Shown: piece after piece, positions 39,004-42,262 of the stretch
Layout: each line of letters begins with the position of its first letter
Position numbering within the stretch: the first letter of the stretch is position 1
DNA from: an uncultured Clostridium sp.
GTDB lineage: Bacteria; Bacillota_I; Bacilli_A; RF39; UBA660
Reading direction: 5' to 3'
DNA length: 64,000 nucleotides
Assembly: GCA_964578175.1 (NCBI GenBank)
Contig: CAZOBH010000003.1
Location: 10,159 to 74,158, forward strand
Position numbers and translations under genes: made by a program
Notes under the pieces: generated by a model
Database searches by the model: none
What the model was told of the DNA's origin: nothing
What the model saw: the letters and a program-made list of their open reading frames with translations, nothing else

Positions 39004-39645
39004 ATGAAGTTATGTTACCATTTTACAAATAAAGATCAATTAGAATCAATATTAAGTGAAGGTTTAAAACCACAATGCGGCATTAATAGTCAATTAATAT
39101 CAGATTCTAGGAAAGAAAAAGTATATTATTCAGTAGGTGAAGAAGCAACTATAAAGATATTTACAGCATTTAATGAAATACTATTGAGAGCACTTGATGG
39201 AAAAATAAGTCCTGAGTTATATGAAACTTATAGTGATGAAATAAAGCAAAAATTAGAAACTTCCCATGATGTAGAATCTTGGATGGGTGATGGAATATAT
39301 TTAGCTTTTGATGGAGATACACTTAATAATTTTAACGAAGAACAGTTAAAAGATGCATATACAACTGACACTATTCCACCAGAAAACTTATATGTATGTG
39401 TATTAAAAGATGAAACTTCAGGTGAAATTGTATCAACAAAACCATCAGATATAGTTACTTACTTTATAGCTAAAAGAACAAATAACTTTAGTGAAGCATT
39501 AAATATTGCAGGATTTTTTGCTCTTGATATAGAAGAAAAAGTAGAAGAGTATAGAAATACACCTTTAACAGTTGATTATATACCATTGTCAAAATATTAT
39601 AAATCACCTCAAAGTGACATCAATGATAAAAGAACTCATTTGTAG
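39004..39645 (+). CDS. Hypothetical protein. The N-terminal CYHFTNKDQLESILSEGL motif is reminiscent of DarT/DUF4433 ART-fold proteins; this attribution is speculative.
   Basis: 213 aa. YHFT...SIL..GL N-terminal pattern only. Confidence 0.3.
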   Translation: MKLCYHFTNKDQLESILSEGLKPQCGINSQLISDSRKEKVYYSVGEEATIKIFTAFNEILLRALDGKISPELYETYSDEIKQKLETSHDVESWMGDGIYLAFDGDTLNNFNEEQLKDAYTTDTIPPENLYVCVLKDETSGEIVSTKPSDIVTYFIAKRTNNFSEALNIAGFFALDIEEKVEEYRNTPLTVDYIPLSKYYKSPQSDINDKRTHL

Positions 39646-39768
39646 TTCTTTTTTATTTATAATAAAAAATACATATACTACATTTTGAACTTTTGATTTT
39701 AATATGAAGTTACATTTATTAATATTATTATGTCATTAATTACAAAATTTTTACCTATAAAATAAAAA

Positions 39769-39788
39769 CTCTAACTAAATAGTTAGAG
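39769..39788. other. Perfect 8-bp stem hairpin (CTCTAACT-aaat-AGTTAGAG)
   Basis: Read directly from the sequence. It lies downstream of the 213-aa gene, but no T-tract follows it. Confidence 0.4.
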
Positions 39789-39945
39789 CAAATATTCTAA
39801 TGGCACGTGTCAAAATTGTGTAGAACGACTCGTACGCATAAATACTAAGTAGTAATAAGATTACTAACTAAAATAATTTTATAATGAAAACGTTAAAAAC
39901 AAATATTAATATTTGTTGGAATTCGTACAAAAGTTTGTAATATTG

Positions 39946-39975
39946 TTAGCATTTTACTAAGATGTATGTTATAAT
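39946..39975 (+). promoter_or_regulatory. Sigma-A type promoter with an extended -10 (TTAGCA, 18-nt spacer, TGtTATAAT)
   Basis: Read directly: tgtTATAAT at 39967-39975. It lies upstream of a ~320-nt leader. Confidence 0.5.
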
Positions 39976-39981
39976 CTAAGA

Positions 39982-40293
39982 GGAAAAATTTAATTGGACA
40001 CAAAAAAACCATGTGTTCACATGATTTTTCTAAGAACTAGGTAGCTACCAACTACCTCAATAAAGCAATAGAATAAAAACAAGCAAGACTATAGTGCTTA
40101 AAAGTGATTCTACCAAAATCACCTATCTTATTCTACATTTTAATGATACAGCAAATTTCTTTCTGTGTCAATGACGATTATGATAGCATAAGTAAAGCAC
40201 GTTAGTCAAGTTCTAATGGAAGGGGGTAACGTGTTTTTTATTGTAATTTGTGTAGTTGGTACTCCTAAAAAATATAATGAAAGGAGTAATAAT
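39982..40293 (+). ncRNA. Structured 5' leader or candidate riboswitch/attenuator. It ends in a terminator-like hairpin (CACGTTA...TAACGTG plus U6) that abuts the RBS of the 40294 gene.
   Basis: Several local hairpins (CATGTG/CACATG; GGTAG/CTACC; GTGAT/ATCAC). GC-richer than the surroundings. Intrinsic-terminator geometry at 40197-40240. Confidence 0.4.
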
Positions 40294-40953
40294 ATGCATA
40301 ATTTATTAGATTTAATCAAAACAACAGACGAGTACATAACTTATTTAAAAAAACATAATTTCAAATTTGATGAAAACGGTTTTCCAATATTTAAAGAAGA
40401 TATGTTCTTAAAAGAAACACCTGAGTTAATTGTTCCCTACTCTAATAGAAATGATAAAAGAGTAAAGAATAAAGAGAAAACATTGTTATGTACATTTGCC
40501 CCAGATCAAAGAATATATCCAAGAATTAAAAATATATTTAAAGAAATTGATGTATATAAGCAATATCTTGGAGTTGCTACTGCAGACATAACTGTTACAG
40601 ATGATATGGATAAAGAGTGGCAAGAATTAATAATATTATTAAATCAGTTATATGGTGCAGTATTAGCGGTAAACGGAATAAAAATAGTACTTAACACTCG
40701 TATTGGTAGTTCGATTAATATTAGACTATATAAATATTTACCTAAAAATATAATATGTATTTCAAGTTTCTTAGGATGTAAAAAAGAAAATAAATATGAC
40801 TACTCATATTTATCTAAAATCTTAAATTTCTTACCATCTAAGCTTTTAATTTATGGTAAAGAAGATAAAAATGTAAATGCTATGCTAGATAACACGGGAA
40901 TCAATTATAAATATTACAACGATTTTCATAAATTAAGTAAAGGAGTGGTATAA
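40294..40953 (+). CDS. Hypothetical protein (220 aa). Start at MHNLLDL, which is preceded by AAAGGAG.
   Basis: Clear RBS. The longer listed ORF would begin inside the terminator hairpin. Confidence 0.5.
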   Translation: MHNLLDLIKTTDEYITYLKKHNFKFDENGFPIFKEDMFLKETPELIVPYSNRNDKRVKNKEKTLLCTFAPDQRIYPRIKNIFKEIDVYKQYLGVATADITVTDDMDKEWQELIILLNQLYGAVLAVNGIKIVLNTRIGSSINIRLYKYLPKNIICISSFLGCKKENKYDYSYLSKILNFLPSKLLIYGKEDKNVNAMLDNTGINYKYYNDFHKLSKGVV

Positions 40954-40955
40954 TA

Positions 40956-41324
40956 ATGGCAGATAGCAAAGAAAAATATTCTGATAGTTCCAGTAATTAT
41001 ATAAACAAAACAGTTCCATATTCAGAAGAAGCAAAACATAATTATAATGTTAGCAAAAAGAAAGAGGAAAAATATAACGTTGAATGGAGTAAAAATAAAG
41101 TTAACATCAATGAGGTAGTAGATAAATTCGCTCCAAATTCAGAAGGTCATGTTGAAGGATATAAATATGTATTTGAAGGTGAAAGATACCAAATTATAGC
41201 AGATATGGTAGCAGGATCACTTAGAATAAAAGATAAAAAAACAAATCAACATGTCAAATTAGATGGAAAGCCTGGAAGTAGGAGTGAAACACATTTAAAA
41301 ATTAAAAAGAGAGGTGAAATGTAA
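40956..41324 (+). CDS. Hypothetical small protein (122 aa)
   Basis: ORF coupled 2 nt after the previous gene. Confidence 0.4.
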   Translation: MADSKEKYSDSSSNYINKTVPYSEEAKHNYNVSKKKEEKYNVEWSKNKVNINEVVDKFAPNSEGHVEGYKYVFEGERYQIIADMVAGSLRIKDKKTNQHVKLDGKPGSRSETHLKIKKRGEM

Positions 41325-41664
41325 ATTGTATTTAGCTTTATACTTAAAAAAACCAGAGATAGAACCTGGTTATTATCCAAAGATTGATAAAAAATATATT
41401 AAAGAATATAGAAATGGAACATTAGAGCAGTCTTTAAAATTAGGAGATTTTTTCTTAAATAATATTGATGAAGAATGCGATGTTTTAGTAGGTCCTTACG
41501 AATATGATTATTGGGATTCAAAGCAATGTAAAAAAATAGTCGATTGGATAGAAAAAAATCAAGATAAAATTAAAGAAGCAGAATTAGATGATTTCTTTAA
41601 AGTGATAACTGATTATTGTAAACAGGCTGTTGAATTAGATACTGGTGTAGAAATTGACTTATAA
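41314..41664 (+). CDS. Hypothetical small acidic protein (116 aa), immunity-protein-like composition
   Basis: Overlapping or tightly packed ORF. W/Y/D-rich core (YEYDYWD). Confidence 0.35.
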   Translation: MKCKLYLALYLKKPEIEPGYYPKIDKKYIKEYRNGTLEQSLKLGDFFLNNIDEECDVLVGPYEYDYWDSKQCKKIVDWIEKNQDKIKEAELDDFFKVITDYCKQAVELDTGVEIDL

Positions 41665-42054
41665 TTGAAAAGTAGTTATAAACTATTAGGGGTGTTTTGG
41701 GATAATTTACAAACTACAAACACAGTATCTTATTTAGATAGCAATAATTTTATTAATGAATTAGATGATGATTATAATATATTTGATATGAATAAAATTA
41801 GAAAAATTAATATTTCAAATATCCTTCAAGTAGAAAATACAACTGATTTAGAAGCGCTTATTATTAAAATGAAAAAACATGAATCAATACTAATAAATAT
41901 TGATTATATTCCATCTAACAATAATAAAATTTTAAATAAACTATATTATAAGAGAATTAATCAAATATATAATTATTTTTCTAATCGTTTAAAAAATACA
42001 AAAATTTATTTATCAAGCAATTATAAATTTTATTTAGAAAATCAAGATGCATGA
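41665..42054 (+). CDS. Hypothetical small protein (129 aa)
   Basis: Starts at the stop of the previous gene. Confidence 0.35.
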   Translation: MKSSYKLLGVFWDNLQTTNTVSYLDSNNFINELDDDYNIFDMNKIRKINISNILQVENTTDLEALIIKMKKHESILINIDYIPSNNNKILNKLYYKRINQIYNYFSNRLKNTKIYLSSNYKFYLENQDA

Positions 42055-42080
42055 TATTGAAATCATGCATCTTTTATTTG
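42046..42080 (+). terminator. Terminator of the small-gene operon
   Basis: GATGCATGAT-attgaa-ATCATGCATC 10-bp perfect stem followed by TTTTATTT. The stop codon sits inside the stem. Confidence 0.7.
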
Positions 42081-42114
42081 TCCATATATATCTAATTTTA
42101 TTTTTTTAAATTTA

Positions 42115-42150
42115 AGCATAAAAAATCTAACTCCTTTCTTGAAGTTAGAA
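42115..42150 (-). terminator. Terminator downstream of tRNA-Trp
   Basis: TCTAACT-tcaagaaagg-AGTTAGA stem followed by U6 on the minus strand. Confidence 0.5.
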
Positions 42151-42188
42151 ATAATATTAAGTTCGAAAAGTTCGAACAGAATTACTCA

Positions 42189-42262
42189 TGGCAGGGGATG
42201 AGAGAATCGAACTCCCAACTAAAGTTTTGGAGACTCCTATTATACCATTTAACTAATCCCCT
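42189..42262 (-). tRNA. trnW: tRNA-Trp (anticodon CCA), CCA end encoded
   Basis: Hand-folded cloverleaf: acceptor AGGGGAT/ATCCCCT, D-arm GTTA/TAAT, anticodon loop CUCCAAA, T-arm GGGAG-TTCGATT-CTCTC, discriminator G, CCA. A TTGTAC-N17-TATAAT promoter lies 16 nt upstream. Confidence 0.85.

What the first reader, a model, noticed from the sequence alone, without database searches (positions are those of the whole stretch)
39946..40293. Long structured 5' leader with a strong promoter and a terminator/attenuator hairpin abutting the downstream RBS; candidate riboswitch or attenuator of unknown class
This is the longest non-coding stretch in the window and it is GC-enriched relative to flanking DNA. 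An extended -10 promoter (TGtTATAAT) is followed by ~250 nt containing several short perfect hairpins (CATGTG/CACATG, GGTAG/CTACC, GTGAT/ATCAC).

An intrinsic-terminator-like structure (CACGUUA ... UAACGUG plus U6) ends only ~50 nt before the AAAGGAG RBS of the first of four small unknown genes.

A GGGGGUAACGUG segment in the 5' half of that stem is loosely T-box-like. However, no tRNA-binding specifier or UGGN bulge is evident, and the regulated genes are not aminoacyl-tRNA related. The class is therefore open.
Basis: seen in the sequence. Interest (0 to 1): 0.65.

Follow-up and report, generated by a model that had tools for sequence, protein, structure and literature searches.

The report
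Antisense-RNA-gated leader of unknown operon
The long non-coding stretch is a real, conserved about 310-nt mRNA leader that most likely switches a four-gene operon of unknown function off through a small RNA made from the opposite strand, as some plasmids control their copy number, and not through a metabolite-sensing riboswitch.

Summary
Positions 39946-40293 carry an extended -10 promoter, several hairpins and a hairpin followed by U6, upstream of the RBS of a DUF4417 gene and three small genes. The leader is conserved in 9 sequence lineages (about 33 metagenome contigs) that carry the same four-gene cassette.

- Two tandem sigma-70-type promoters are invariant in their hexamers and in the TG of P2: P1 is TTGACA-17-TATCAT and P2 is TTGACt-17/18-TGnTAnnnT.
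- An intrinsic terminator lies about 135 nt downstream of P1. Its stem sequence differs between lineages, but the stem and the U-run are always kept.
- Together these predict a cis-antisense RNA of 125-139 nt (or 162-176 nt from P2) that covers the 5' half of the leader.

The 3' half of the leader holds two segments that mimic this antisense RNA.
- M3, at the terminator's 5' arm, pairs with hairpin H3.
- D, at -53 to -19 from the ATG and including an anti-SD, pairs with hairpin H2. H2 and D covary completely (2 of 5040 permutations score as well).

Best model: the antisense RNA binds H2-H4, which frees M3 to form the terminator and frees D to mask the SD. This is attenuation as in pT181/pIP501 combined with competition as in IncI-alpha/IncB.

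There is no Rfam match. Nothing has been tested experimentally. The main rivals are an invertible DNA switch, a cis riboswitch and a long-range RNA clamp unrelated to the antisense RNA.

The parts
39946..39975 (+). Sense promoter: -35 TTAGCA (39946-51) and extended -10 TGtTATAAT (39967-75). Predicted TSS about 39982.
   Evidence: 10 of 12 matches plus TG. TGnTAnnnT with a -35-like hexamer sits at the same place in 9 lineages.
39982..40293 (+). About 312-nt 5' leader of the g1-g4 operon.
   Evidence: Fold z = -5.3. Homologous leaders of 305-339 nt occur in all lineages. Indels that are not multiples of 3 argue against coding.
40000..40029 (-). Intrinsic terminator of the antisense RNA. On the minus strand: UCAUGU-GAAC-ACAUGG followed by U7 (complement of 40002-40008).
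   Evidence: On the + strand an A-run of 6 or more lies immediately 5' of a hairpin in every lineage, and the stems differ: CATGTG/CACATG, GAGAATC/GATTCTC, ATCGTG/CACGAT, GAAAGAATCA/TGATTCTTTC, GTCATGCC/GGCATGGC. In L076, L093 and L094 there is no + strand U-run after it.
40002..40136 (-). Predicted cis-antisense RNA, about 135 nt from P1 (about 172 nt, starting near 40173, if P2 fires). Its fold is a 5' stem enclosing hairpins H4' and H3', then H2', then the terminator.
   Evidence: The same architecture is predicted independently in 9 lineages. Energies are -32 to -44 kcal/mol, against -18 to -33 for the same stretch in + sense. The MFEs contain 65 G-U of 419 pairs against 8 of 302. Predicted sizes are 125-139 and 162-176 nt.
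40040..40056 (+). Hairpin H2 (GGTAG-CTACCAA-CTACC). It is the target of the antisense hairpin H2' (loop UUGGUAG) and the partner of segment D.
   Evidence: The stem covaries: GGCAG/CTGCC, TAACTG/CAGTTA, AGCAGC/GCTGCT, GTAGTAA/TTACTAC.
40069..40135 (+). Junction stem TAGAATAA (40069-76) with TTATTCTA (40128-35), enclosing H3 (40081-99, AAGCA/TGCTT) and H4 (40104-22, GTGATT/AATCAC, loop CTACCAA as in H2).
   Evidence: The junction pair changes A-T to G-C in L076. L056 and L093 have C.A in + sense, which is G.U in - sense. H4 extends to 9-10 bp in L059.
40143..40171 (-). Antisense promoter P1: TTGACA-17-TATCAT. TSS about 40136.
   Evidence: Best promoter match in the 3.5 kb scanned, 11 of 12. The hexamers and the 17-nt spacing are the same in all 11 lineages or partial lineages, except ATGACA in L085.
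40145..40169 (+). Hairpin H5 (GATACAG/CTGTGTC), a + sense structure inside the P1 spacer.
   Evidence: 99% of cells are paired in 17 sequences. One pair changes G-C to U-A or A-U. A U.G pair is present in + sense in 17 of 17.
40180..40209 (-). Antisense promoter P2: TTGACT-18-TGcTATCAT. TSS about 40173.
   Evidence: 10 of 12 plus TG. In all 11 sequences examined, TTGAC, TG and T1, A2, T6 of the -10 are invariant, while -10 positions 3-5 and the spacer vary (TATCAT, TATTAT, TAAAAT, TACTAT, TAATAT).
40195..40209 (+). M3: AAGCACGTTAGTCAA. It covers the 5' flank and 5' arm of the terminator and mimics antisense H3'. It pairs with H3 (GACTATAGTGCTT) as the presumed antiterminator.
   Evidence: Duplex of -17.2 kcal/mol against -8.4 +/- 2.1 in 500 shuffles (0 of 500 as good). 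Significant in 6 of 9 lineages (p <= 0.04) and 0.10 in L059. L095 has H3 ATAAAGTACTTTAT and M3 ATAAAGTAC.
40198..40239 (+). Leader terminator/attenuator: CACGTTA ... TAACGTG followed by U6.
   Evidence: Energies are -12.2 kcal/mol in the window and -7.5 to -10.2 in relatives. Three of 7 pairs show double changes and 88% of cells are paired. Variants are CATGTTA/TAACATG, TACGTTA/TAACGTA and TACATTAG/CTAATGTA. It is weak or absent in L076, L093 and L094.
40218..40226 (+). Conserved purine-rich SD-like box GGAAGGGGG in the terminator loop. Its role is unexplained.
   Evidence: Conserved in all lineages except L094. See the notebook entry under 'unexplained'.
40252..40265 (+). Segment D (GTAGTTGGTA, 40252-61) plus anti-SD (TACTCC, 40260-65). 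It mimics antisense H2'. It pairs either with H2 or with the SD.
   Evidence: The H2 x D duplex is -17.9 kcal/mol. Cognate pairs are the best of all 5040 permutations over 7 lineages (2 of 5040 as good). D always lies at -53 to -19 from the ATG.
40280..40296 (+). RBS AAAGGAGTA (GGAGTA at 40283-88 pairs with TACTCC) and start codon ATG 40294.
   Evidence: helix 4, 74.5% of cells paired, no double changes. The modelled probability that the SD is unpaired falls from 0.67 to 0.00 when the antisense target is blocked.
40294..42054 (+). Regulated operon: g1 DUF4417 (40294-40953), g2 (40956-41324), g3 (41326-41664) and g4 (41665-42054). A bidirectional terminator lies at 42044-42073.
   Evidence: The four genes co-occur in loci from three phyla.

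Best explanation
The region is the control module of a four-gene operon (DUF4417 plus three small genes). The module is a long mRNA leader overlapped by a constitutively made cis-antisense RNA.

Anatomy:
- The sense promoter (39946-75) starts the mRNA near 39982.
- Inside the leader, two tandem promoters on the other strand (P1 at 40171-40143, P2 at 40209-40180) make an antisense RNA of about 135 or 172 nt. It ends at its own terminator (40024-40002).
- The antisense RNA is therefore complementary to leader hairpins H2, H3 and H4.
- The 3' half of the leader carries two internal copies of antisense sequence. M3 (40195-40209) is complementary to H3. D (40252-40265) is complementary to H2.

Proposed switch:
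- Without antisense RNA, H3:M3 pairing keeps the terminator's 5' arm busy, so transcription reads through. H2:D pairing keeps the anti-SD busy, so the SD is open and the operon is ON.
- When the antisense RNA captures H2-H4 on the nascent transcript, probably by loop-loop kissing through the repeated CUACCAA/UUGGUAG loops, M3 pairs with TAACGUG and transcription stops at U6 (40234-39).
- In transcripts that escape termination, UACUCC pairs with GGAGUA and masks the RBS. The operon is OFF.

Shown in silico: conservation of all three promoters and of the antisense terminator, covariation of H2, the H2:D pairing, H5 and the leader terminator stem, and compensatory or retained pairing in the antisense terminator, the junction stem and H3:M3 (H3:M3 pairs in shifting registers).

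Inferred, not shown: that the antisense RNA is made, that it binds, and that binding causes termination and translational block.

In three distant lineages only the H2:D part is evident, so the attenuator may be an addition specific to the window's clade.
For: 1. Minus-strand promoters.
- P1 is the best sigma-70 match in the 3.5 kb scanned, 11 of 12.
- For both P1 and P2 the -35 hexamer, T1/A2/T6 of the -10 hexamer and (for P2) the TG extension are invariant in all 11 sequences examined (9 lineages plus the partial L085 and L061), except ATGACA for P1 in L085. The P2 spacer and -10 positions 3-5 drift. This is the pattern expected of promoters rather than of an aptamer.

2. Minus-strand terminator.
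- It lies 125-139 nt downstream of P1 in every full-length lineage, with five different stem sequences and a U-run of 6-8.
- On the + strand this appears as an A-run 5' of a hairpin, which has no obvious + strand use.

3. Fold of the antisense RNA.
- The same fold (junction stem with two hairpins, then H2', then the terminator) is predicted independently in 9 lineages, with z between -2.4 and -5.7 in the 8 lineages tested against shuffles.
- It is always more stable than the + sense fold of the same stretch.
- G-U pairs number 65 of 419 against 8 of 302.

4. H2:D long-range pairing.
- It holds with wholly different sequences in 7 lineages, for example 14 bp TAACTGTTGCAGCA/TGCTGCAACAGTTA in L094.
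- The cognate assignment is the best of 5040 permutations, with 2 of 5040 as good.

5. H3:M3 complementarity is significant against shuffles in 6 of 9 lineages.

6. Formal pair counts on 17 sequences.
- 82.7% of cells are paired, against 28-47% when partners are slid.
- The covariation score is 0.152 against about 0.055, and 0 of 500 shuffles reach it.
- Three of 7 terminator pairs show double changes.

7. Thermodynamic modelling.
- The probability of the terminator stem is 0.01-0.30 with the target region free, and 0.68-0.99 with it blocked.
- The probability that the SD is unpaired falls from 0.67 to 0.00 in the window.

8. Known precedents have the same anatomy.
- pIP501 RNAIII is a 136-nt antisense RNA that induces attenuation in the repR leader and needs two loop pairs (PMC4981023).
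- pT181 uses kissing hairpins (PMC3753616).
- In ColIb-P9 pseudoknot formation competes with antisense binding at one loop (Asano & Mizobuchi 1998, reference list of PMC10724649).
Against: - There is no expression data of any kind. Promoter-like hexamers are common in 25% GC DNA (26 found, 29 expected).
- The free-versus-blocked effect on the terminator is not special on its own. Shuffling the target region disrupts this weak hairpin as strongly in 9-54% of trials.
- The SD-masking prediction holds for the window, L088, L093 and L094. It shows little for L059, L090 and L076.
- A convincing leader terminator is missing in L076, L093 and L094.
- H3:M3 uses different registers in different lineages, so it is retained complementarity rather than strict covariation.
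- The excess of G-U pairs on the minus strand partly reflects its G+U-rich composition.
- Structure on complementary strands cannot be fully separated.
- The conserved purine box in the terminator loop has no role in the model.
Confidence: 0.6

Rival explanations
1. Cis-acting riboswitch or protein- or tRNA-sensing attenuator. The conserved core 40120-40233 would be an aptamer whose ligand or protein decides between the terminator and an antiterminator. No antisense RNA would be involved.
For: - The leader is strongly structured and conserved, with a terminator upstream of the RBS.
- H5 is a + sense hairpin with an invariant U.G pair.
- A conserved purine box sits in the terminator loop without explanation.
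- Alternative pairings to the terminator exist.
Against: - No Rfam family matches, even at E <= 10.
- The invariant bases of the core coincide exactly with two -35/-10 hexamer pairs at 17-18 nt spacing on the other strand, while the bases between them vary.
- An independent minus-strand terminator is conserved by compensation.
- The terminator, which would be the expression platform, is absent in three lineages that keep everything else.
- The downstream genes give no hint of a ligand.
Confidence: 0.12
2. Invertible DNA switch (inverton). H2 (40040-57) and D (40250-65) would be inverted repeats about 195 bp apart. They flank a segment that carries outward-facing promoters and a + strand terminator. 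A recombinase acting in trans would flip the segment. That flip would either remove the terminator, as in cwpV, or point P1/P2 at the operon, as in fimS.
For: - Inverted repeats of 10-14 bp flank a promoter-containing segment of about 195 bp, and the two arms always match each other. Co-evolution of the arms is also what recombining repeats would show.
- The comparison with cwpV and fimS is from general knowledge, not from a tool result.
Against: - The core is in the same orientation in 33 of 33 informative contigs. These were picked by protein identity or by a both-strand pattern scan, so selection was blind to orientation.
- The repeat sequence differs completely between lineages, so there is no conserved recombinase site.
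- H2 is itself a covarying hairpin while D is not.
- Mismatches include G.U-type pairs and a bulge (L085, L095, L076).
- An upstream sense promoter, two internal antisense promoters and an antisense terminator outside the repeats are all conserved. An inverton does not need all of these.
- No recombinase gene appears in any neighbourhood.
Confidence: 0.07
3. The minus-strand RNA and the leader structure are real but not coupled as a switch. For example, H2:D and H3:M3 might simply close the 5' UTR into a stable panhandle that protects the mRNA or directs RNase III processing. The antisense transcript would then act only through transcriptional interference or duplex-dependent decay, or it would be an independent sRNA.
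For: - The full-length MFE closes H2 with D around the whole leader.
- Convergent promoters about 155 nt apart allow interference, as described for pIP501 (PMC4981023).
- The SD-masking prediction is inconsistent across lineages.
- The attenuator is missing in three lineages.
Against: - D and M3 are copies of exactly those antisense segments (H2', H3') whose targets they pair with. That makes competition with the antisense RNA unavoidable if it is made.
- D sits next to the SD at a fixed distance and carries an anti-SD in 7 of the 10 lineages where D and the SD can be read.
- The 21-nt core pattern was found in metagenomes only next to this cassette.
Confidence: 0.12
4. Leader-peptide (ribosome-mediated) attenuation or translational coupling. 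The SD-like box GGAAGGRGG plus GTG/ATG in the terminator's 3' arm would start a short ORF, and its translation would open the terminator or the anti-SD:SD hairpin.
For: - A strong SD-like box is conserved and is followed 3-5 nt later by GTG or ATG in most lineages. The short ORFs of 3-15 codons end in or near D and the SD. In the window the frame runs into g1.
- IncI-alpha/IncB systems use a leader peptide together with a pseudoknot (general knowledge; titles).
Against: - The start codon is GTA in L056 and L084.
- These bases covary with the terminator's 5' arm.
- ORF length and stop position are not conserved.
- The spacing of 3-4 nt is short.
- L094 lacks the box altogether.
Confidence: 0.05

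Closest known systems
Countertranscript-driven transcription attenuation of plasmid rep genes: pT181 RNAI/II, and the inc18 plasmids pIP501 (RNAIII) and pAM-beta-1. Also Anti-Q/prgQ of pCF10 and RnaG/icsA.
   Same: - A cis-antisense RNA is made from a promoter inside the leader, convergent with the sense promoter.
- The predicted size of about 135 nt compares with 136 nt for RNAIII (PMC4981023).
- The antisense RNA has several stem-loops, and two repeated loops could serve for kissing.
- An intrinsic terminator lies just upstream of the RBS, and its 5' arm can alternatively pair with the antisense target region (H3:M3).
- The host is a low-GC Gram-positive-type organism.
   Different: - There is no sequence or Rfam relationship.
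- It regulates a chromosomal DUF4417 four-gene operon, not a replication initiator.
- This g1 subfamily has no hit in 72,556 plasmid or 50,697 phage records.
- No Cop-like repressor gene is present.
- The attenuator is missing in three lineages.
- An extra translational layer (D/anti-SD) is present.
IncI-alpha (ColIb-P9), IncB (pMU720) and IncL/M control of repZ/repA: an activator pseudoknot competes with antisense Inc RNA/RNAI.
   Same: - The loop of a 5' leader hairpin (H2) pairs with a sequence just upstream of the RBS (D).
- The same hairpin is the target of the antisense RNA, so long-range pairing and antisense binding exclude each other.
- The antisense loop is UUGGUAG. The ColIb-P9 loop motif is 5'-UUGGCG-3' (title cited).
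   Different: - The organisms differ: Gram-negative plasmids there, chromosomes of uncultured low-GC bacteria here.
- The pairing here is 10-14 bp or more and includes stem bases, rather than a short loop pseudoknot.
- There is no conserved leader peptide.
- The antisense RNA is about twice as long and covers three hairpins.
Rfam RNAI (RF00106, ColE1-type antisense RNA).
   Same: There is a weak match on the minus strand at 40000-40081 (23.5 bits, E = 0.07). It reflects two stem-loops followed by a U-run.
   Different: The score is far below the gathering score of 47. The system has no primer RNAII logic and is not a member.
Invertible promoter or terminator switches (fimS, C. difficile cwpV/flgB).
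   Same: Short inverted repeats about 195 bp apart flank promoters and a terminator, and lie between a promoter and an ORF.
   Different: - Only one orientation is seen, in 33 of 33 contigs.
- There is no conserved repeat motif.
- There is no recombinase gene nearby.
- One repeat is itself a hairpin.

Membership tests
Countertranscript (antisense RNA) transcription attenuators (pT181 / pIP501 type) | An antisense promoter lies inside the leader, convergent with the sense promoter. | tested here: met
   P1 is TTGACA-17-TATCAT and P2 is TTGACt-17/18-TGnTAnnnT. Both are conserved in all 11 sequences examined (9 lineages plus two partial). The evidence is in silico only.
Countertranscript (antisense RNA) transcription attenuators (pT181 / pIP501 type) | A discrete small antisense RNA that ends at its own terminator and overlaps the 5' leader. 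| tested here: met
   A terminator with compensatory stems and U6-8 lies 125-139 nt from the P1 TSS. The transcript itself has not been observed.
Countertranscript (antisense RNA) transcription attenuators (pT181 / pIP501 type) | An intrinsic terminator in the leader upstream of the RBS. | tested here: met
   Window: 7-bp stem, U6, -12.2 kcal/mol. Three of 7 pairs show double changes. The feature is not met in lineages L076, L093 and L094.
Countertranscript (antisense RNA) transcription attenuators (pT181 / pIP501 type) | A pre-emptor pairing between the antisense target region and the terminator's 5' arm, so that antisense binding favours the terminator. | tested here: inconclusive
   H3:M3 is significant against shuffles in 6 of 9 lineages. 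The terminator probability rises from 0.01-0.30 to 0.68-0.99 when the target is blocked. However, the shuffle control gives p of 0.09-0.54.
Countertranscript (antisense RNA) transcription attenuators (pT181 / pIP501 type) | Controls a plasmid replication initiator, or is homologous to known ctRNA families. | tested here: not met
   The downstream gene is DUF4417. There are no plasmid or phage hits. No Rfam ctRNA, CopA or RNAI membership was found.
IncI-alpha/IncB-type activator pseudoknot versus antisense RNA | The loop of a 5' hairpin pairs with a sequence adjacent to the RBS. | tested here: met
   H2 x D covaries in 7 lineages, with 2 of 5040 permutations as good. D lies at -53 to -19 from the ATG.
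IncI-alpha/IncB-type activator pseudoknot versus antisense RNA | The long-range pairing activates translation and the antisense RNA blocks it. | tested here: inconclusive
   Modelled SD accessibility falls when the target is blocked in the window, L088, L093 and L094. It does not fall in L059, L090 or L076. An anti-SD:SD helix is present in 7 of 10 lineages, without double changes.
IncI-alpha/IncB-type activator pseudoknot versus antisense RNA | A translationally coupled leader peptide (repY/repB). | tested here: not met
   The short ORF after the SD-like box is not conserved. The start is GTA in L056 and L084, and lengths range from 3 to 15 codons.
Riboswitch / T-box leader | A match to a curated aptamer or T-box model (Stem I specifier, T-box sequence). 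| tested here: not met
   Nothing was found in cmscan at gathering score or at E <= 10.
Riboswitch / T-box leader | Ligand-dependent structural change. | not testable with these tools
   This needs in-line probing or in vitro transcription.
Invertible DNA switch | Both orientations of the segment between the inverted repeats occur in populations. | tested here: not met
   None of 33 informative contigs is inverted. Raw reads were not available.
Type I toxin-antitoxin | A small hydrophobic toxin ORF whose mRNA is targeted by the antisense RNA. | tested here: not met
   The first ORF is a 219-aa alpha/beta protein (AF2 pLDDT 90.6). No conserved small ORF lies in the leader, and indels are not in multiples of 3.

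The most novel reading that the evidence does not exclude
The leader plus antisense RNA is a dosage- or threshold-sensing gate of the kind otherwise seen on plasmids, transposons and toxin-antitoxin loci. It has two built-in 'antisense mimic' segments, M3 and D, that act on both transcription and translation. It guards a widespread, uncharacterised four-gene module (DUF4417 plus three small proteins) found in Firmicutes, Fibrobacterota and Actinobacteriota, which may be toxic, defensive or mobile. At least seven specificity variants of the H2/D pair have evolved, resembling plasmid incompatibility groups.
Probability: 0.3. Interest if true: 0.7.

Novelty: new member of a known kind. Interest (0 to 1): 0.55.

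Why it matters
If confirmed, this would be a chromosomal example of plasmid-style countertranscript control, found in uncultured gut and rumen bacteria. It would combine attenuation with a competition between antisense binding and long-range pairing in a single leader.

Three consequences follow.
- It flags the DUF4417 four-gene module as something the cell keeps tightly gated. The module is conserved across three phyla, is absent from the defence-system, phage-family and NCBI libraries searched, and g1 and g2 models have no match among solved structures. This gives a handle for studying it: de-repress it by removing P1 and P2.
- The natural series of orthogonal H2/D and terminator variants could be useful as parts for RNA-based transcription regulators, as the pT181 attenuator has been (PMC3753616).
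- It is a caution for riboswitch hunting. A conserved, structured, GC-enriched leader with a terminator can owe its most conserved 'core' to promoters on the other strand.

Tried and rejected
RNA family and homology searches:
- Rfam at gathering score and at E <= 10 gave nothing except a weak RNAI-like hit.
- A 21-nt core pattern scan found 3 chance hits in viral contigs. In JGI metagenomes it found 11 hits, of which only 4 were true and near-identical to the window.
- The genome-contig scan for DUF4417 relatives returned 55 loci, all at 55% identity or less. None has a homologous leader by nhmmer.
- A MAFFT alignment of the antisense region across distant lineages was too poor for column-wise covariation (which also contained my orientation error for L070). 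RNAalifold on the close clade recovered only three hairpins. I therefore used per-lineage folding, duplex matrices and permutation tests instead.

Structure modelling:
- The equilibrium 'free versus blocked' terminator model looked striking but did not survive a shuffle control as stand-alone evidence.
- Evaluating the mirrored antisense structure on the + strand gave meaningless energies and was dropped.

Protein function searches:
- Pfam found only DUF4417, at its cut-off, for g1.
- PADLOC, PHROGs and NCBIfam gave nothing useful.
- PDB sequence searches for g2-g4 gave nothing.
- The AF2 model of g1 (pLDDT 90.6) and of g2 (pLDDT 71) had no significant Foldseek match in PDB.
- tblastn of g1 against phage and plasmid collections gave no match.

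Ideas considered and set aside:
- Cassette mobility. Identical copies sit behind different left flanks in L095-L104, but the shared boundary is the last 7 nt of tRNA-His and the right flank is mostly constant. A tRNA integration hotspot to the left explains this better.
- Leader peptide and T-box ideas were rejected for the reasons given under the rival explanations.
Full report
OBSERVATION

The window is low-GC DNA (about 25% GC). Between a 213-aa ORF that ends at 39645 and ATG 40294 lies the longest ORF-free stretch of the window.
- The promoter TTAGCA-18-TGtTATAAT at 39946-75, with 10 of 12 matches plus TG.
- The small hairpins.
- CACGTTA(40198-204)...TAACGTG(40227-33) followed by T6 (40234-39). 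Its 22-nt loop explains why the simple terminator scan skipped it. Its local fold is -12.2 kcal/mol.
- The RBS AAAGGAG at 40280.

GC is 0.28-0.31, against 0.19-0.25 in the adjoining non-coding DNA. The predicted leader (39982-40300) folds at -78.8 kcal/mol with z = -5.3. Rfam finds nothing at gathering score. At E <= 10 it finds only a weak RNAI-like hit, and that hit is on the minus strand.

WHAT IS DOWNSTREAM

- g1 (40294-40953) is a DUF4417 protein, scoring exactly at the Pfam cut-off.
- g2, g3 and g4 match nothing in Pfam, PADLOC, PHROGs, NCBIfam or the PDB sequence set.
- An AF2 model of g1 (pLDDT 90.6) is an alpha/beta fold with no significant PDB neighbour. The g2 model (pLDDT 71) has none either.
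- tblastn shows that all four genes travel together in DUF4417 loci from Lachnospiraceae, Oscillospiraceae, Fibrobacter, Bifidobacterium and Eggerthellaceae, with permuted gene order. This is a widespread, uncharacterised four-gene module.
- This g1 subfamily has no hits in the phage or plasmid collections.
- DUF4417 has been reported fused to ParB-CTPase folds in prophages (bioRxiv 10.1101/2025.10.10.680097).

COMPARATIVE SET

Closer relatives (61-99% identity) exist only in metagenome assemblies. I fetched their contigs through protein look-ups and one DNA pattern scan. This gave nine sequence lineages with a homologous leader:
- the window with L070, L071, L073 and L075
- L056-58
- L088/89
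- L059/60
- L090-92
- L085/84 (5'-truncated), plus the partial L061
- L076-79
- L093
- L094
- L095-104

The leader measures 305-339 nt from the -10 box to the ATG in all of them. More distant cassettes (55% identity or less) have no homologous leader.

THE MINUS STRAND

The most conserved block of the alignment (window 40143-40209) reads on the minus strand as two tandem promoters:
- P1 is TTGACA-17-TATCAT (40171-40143). It is the best match in the 3.5 kb scanned.
- P2 is TTGACT-18-TGcTATCAT (40209-40180).

Across all 11 sequences examined (the nine lineages plus the partial L085 and L061), TTGAC, the TG extension and positions T1, A2 and T6 of the -10 box never change. The -10 positions 3-5 vary (TATCAT, TATTAT, TAAAAT, TACTAT, TAATAT), and so does the P2 spacer. 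That is the constraint pattern of a promoter.

A hairpin plus a U-run of 6-8 lies 125-139 nt downstream of the P1 start. Its stem is different in each deep lineage:
- CATGTG/CACATG
- GAGAATC/GATTCTC
- ATCGTG/CACGAT
- GAAAGAATCA/TGATTCTTTC
- GTCATGCC/GGCATGGC

On the plus strand this appears as an A-run 5' of a hairpin. In L076, L093 and L094 no plus-strand U-run follows it, so it is a minus-strand terminator.

Folded independently, the nine predicted antisense RNAs adopt one architecture: a 5' stem enclosing two hairpins, then a hairpin H2', then the terminator. Energies are -32 to -44 kcal/mol, with z from -2.4 to -5.7 in the eight lineages tested against shuffles. The antisense fold is always more stable than the same stretch in plus sense, which folds at -18 to -33 kcal/mol. 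G-U pairs are 65 of 419 in the antisense folds against 8 of 302 in the plus-sense folds. Composition contributes to that difference.

THE PLUS-STRAND LEADER HAS TWO 'ANTISENSE MIMICS'

First mimic: segment D.
- D (GTAGTTGGTA-CTCC, 40252-65) is nearly the reverse complement of hairpin H2 (GGTAGCTACCAACTACC, 40040-56). In sequence it therefore resembles the antisense hairpin H2'.
- H2 and D change together in every lineage:
  - CAACTGC/GCAGTTG
  - AGCGTCAACTA/TAGTTGATGCT
  - AGCATCAAC/GTTGATGCT
  - TAACTGTTGCAGCA/TGCTGCAACAGTTA
  - GCTATTAGCTGCT/AGCAGTTAATGGC
- In a 7 x 7 matrix of duplex energies, the cognate assignment is the best of 5040 permutations. Two of 5040 score as well, the other being a swap of two similar lineages.
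- D always lies at -53 to -19 from the ATG.
- In 7 of the 10 lineages where D and the SD can be read, its 3' end is an anti-SD. In the window this is UACUCC pairing with GGAGUA. Helix 4 is 74.5% paired, with no double changes.

Second mimic: segment M3.
- M3 (AAGCACGTTAGTCAA, 40195-209) covers the 5' flank and 5' arm of the leader terminator. It is complementary to hairpin H3 (GACTATAGTGCTT). The duplex is -17.2 kcal/mol, against -8.4 +/- 2.1 in shuffles, with 0 of 500 shuffles as good.
- Comparable complementarity, in shifting registers around the invariant TAGTCA/TGACTA, is significant in 6 of 9 lineages. It is also evident in L095, which has ATAAAGTAC in both H3 and M3.

Formal pair counting on 17 sequences covered the S stem, H5, the terminator and the anti-SD:SD helix:
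- 82.7% of cells are paired, against 28-47% with slid partners.
- The covariation score is 0.152, against about 0.055 for slid partners, and 0 of 500 shuffles reach it.
- Three of the 7 terminator pairs show double changes: CACGTTA/TAACGTG, CATGTTA/TAACATG, TACGTTA/TAACGTA and TACATTAG/CTAATGTA.
- H5 carries a U.G pair in plus sense in 17 of 17 sequences, so it is a plus-sense structure.

MECHANISM PROPOSED

1. Sense and antisense promoters face each other about 155 nt apart.
2. If no antisense RNA binds the nascent leader, H3:M3 pairing pre-empts the terminator. Later, H2:D pairing keeps the anti-SD away from the SD. The operon is ON.
3. If the antisense RNA captures H2-H4, M3 pairs with TAACGUG and RNA polymerase stops at U6. 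Transcripts that escape have D free to mask the SD. The operon is OFF. In the window clade both the H2 and H4 loops are CUACCAA and face UUGGUAG loops in the antisense RNA.

Modelling agrees with this in direction:
- The probability of the terminator stem is 0.01-0.30 with the target free, and 0.68-0.99 with it blocked.
- In the window, the probability that the SD is unpaired falls from 0.67 to 0.00.

Two caveats apply to the modelling. The first effect is not significant against shuffled upstream sequence. The second is uneven across lineages.

L076, L093 and L094 keep the promoters, the antisense terminator and H2:D, but they lack a convincing leader terminator. The translational or long-range layer therefore looks ancestral, and the attenuator looks clade-specific.

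All steps involving actual transcription, binding and outcome are inferred.

COMPARISON WITH KNOWN SYSTEMS

The anatomy matches countertranscript attenuation:
- pT181 uses kissing hairpins (PMC3753616).
- pIP501 RNAIII is 136 nt, acts in the repR leader and needs two loop pairs. Its convergent promoters also interfere with each other (PMC4981023).

It also matches the IncI-alpha/IncB scheme, in which a 5' hairpin loop either forms an activating pseudoknot next to the RBS or is bound by the antisense RNA (Asano & Mizobuchi 1998, titles in PMC10724649).

It is not a member of any of those families by sequence, by genetic context or by a leader peptide, which is not conserved here.

RIVALS

- Invertible DNA switch. 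This deserves mention because H2 and D are inverted repeats about 195 bp apart around promoters and a terminator. However, 33 of 33 informative contigs have the same orientation. The repeats share no motif between lineages, one repeat is itself a covarying hairpin, and no recombinase gene is nearby.
- Ligand riboswitch. This is disfavoured because the 'core' is explained by the minus-strand promoters and the expression platform is dispensable in three lineages.
- Leader peptide. A start after the conserved SD-like box (40218-26) is not supported. It is GTA in two lineages and those bases covary with the stem. The box itself remains unexplained.

VERDICT

The feature is real and conserved. Most likely (about 0.6) it is an antisense-RNA-controlled leader. 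That makes it a new, non-homologous member of a known regulatory kind, sitting in front of an unknown but widely distributed four-gene module.

Noticed in passing
window 40294-42054; loci L001-L053: g1 (DUF4417), g2, g3 and g4 co-occur in almost every DUF4417 locus retrieved. The loci come from Firmicutes, Fibrobacter, Bifidobacterium, Eggerthellaceae and Atopobium, and the gene order is permuted. None of the four genes matches PADLOC or NCBIfam, and only g1 has a weak PHROGs match to a family of unknown function. This is an uncharacterised four-gene module spread across three phyla.
   Followed up: partly
window 40218-40233 (and ORF 40216..40953): A conserved SD-like purine box GGAAGGRGG is followed by GTG or ATG. 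In the window, GTG 40231 (and ATG 40216) are in frame with g1. Gene callers therefore sometimes report 239-245-aa products (P0002, P0013). The short ORF is not conserved elsewhere, and the role of the box is unknown.
   Followed up: partly
L095-L104, about 420 nt upstream of g1: Near-identical cassettes (98-99.7% identity) sit behind different left flanks. The shared sequence starts at CGCCCCA, the last 7 nt of a tRNA-His gene. That gene is intact in L095, L099 and L100 and absent in L096 and L104. The most likely reading is a tRNA-His integration hotspot to the left of the cassette, not mobility of the cassette itself.
   Followed up: partly
window 42044-42262: A bidirectional terminator (42044-42073) closes the operon. 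A tRNA-Trp (CCA anticodon) gene lies on the minus strand at 42189-42262, immediately downstream, with two more minus-strand terminator-like hairpins between them.
   Followed up: no
window 39768-39840: A minus-strand terminator-like hairpin (GCTCTAACTA...TAGTTAGAGT followed by a T-run, 39789-39768) lies next to a GC-richer stretch (GGCACGTGTCAAAATTGTGTAGAACGACTCGTACGC). Both are upstream of the sense promoter. Neither is conserved in the other cassette loci.
   Followed up: no
L080-L083: A decayed copy of the cassette. g1 is 5'-truncated (183 aa called), g2 is shortened to 83 aa, only a fragment of g4 remains, and no leader is present.
   Followed up: no
L086/L087, 300 nt upstream of g1: This 53%-identity lineage has a non-homologous upstream region of about 300 nt. 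It also shows an A-run followed by a hairpin (GCAATG...CATTGC) and long inverted repeats (TTGGCAG...CTGCCAA, GACTAA...TTAGTC). It may be an analogous control region.
   Followed up: no
window 40110-40117 versus 40045-40051: The loop of H4 (CTACCAAA) repeats the loop of H2 (CTACCAA) in the window clade. The antisense RNA would therefore present two identical UUGGUAG loops, and D could also pair with H4.
   Followed up: partly
window 39004-39645: The 213-aa ORF upstream of the leader has only a weak, sub-threshold similarity to the NrS-1 polymerase tail domain. It is absent from all other cassette loci.
   Followed up: no
L031 and L053 (contig CAVBHJ010000025.1): One contig carries two DUF4417 matches about 6.5 kb apart. 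A single genome can therefore hold more than one copy of the module.
   Followed up: no
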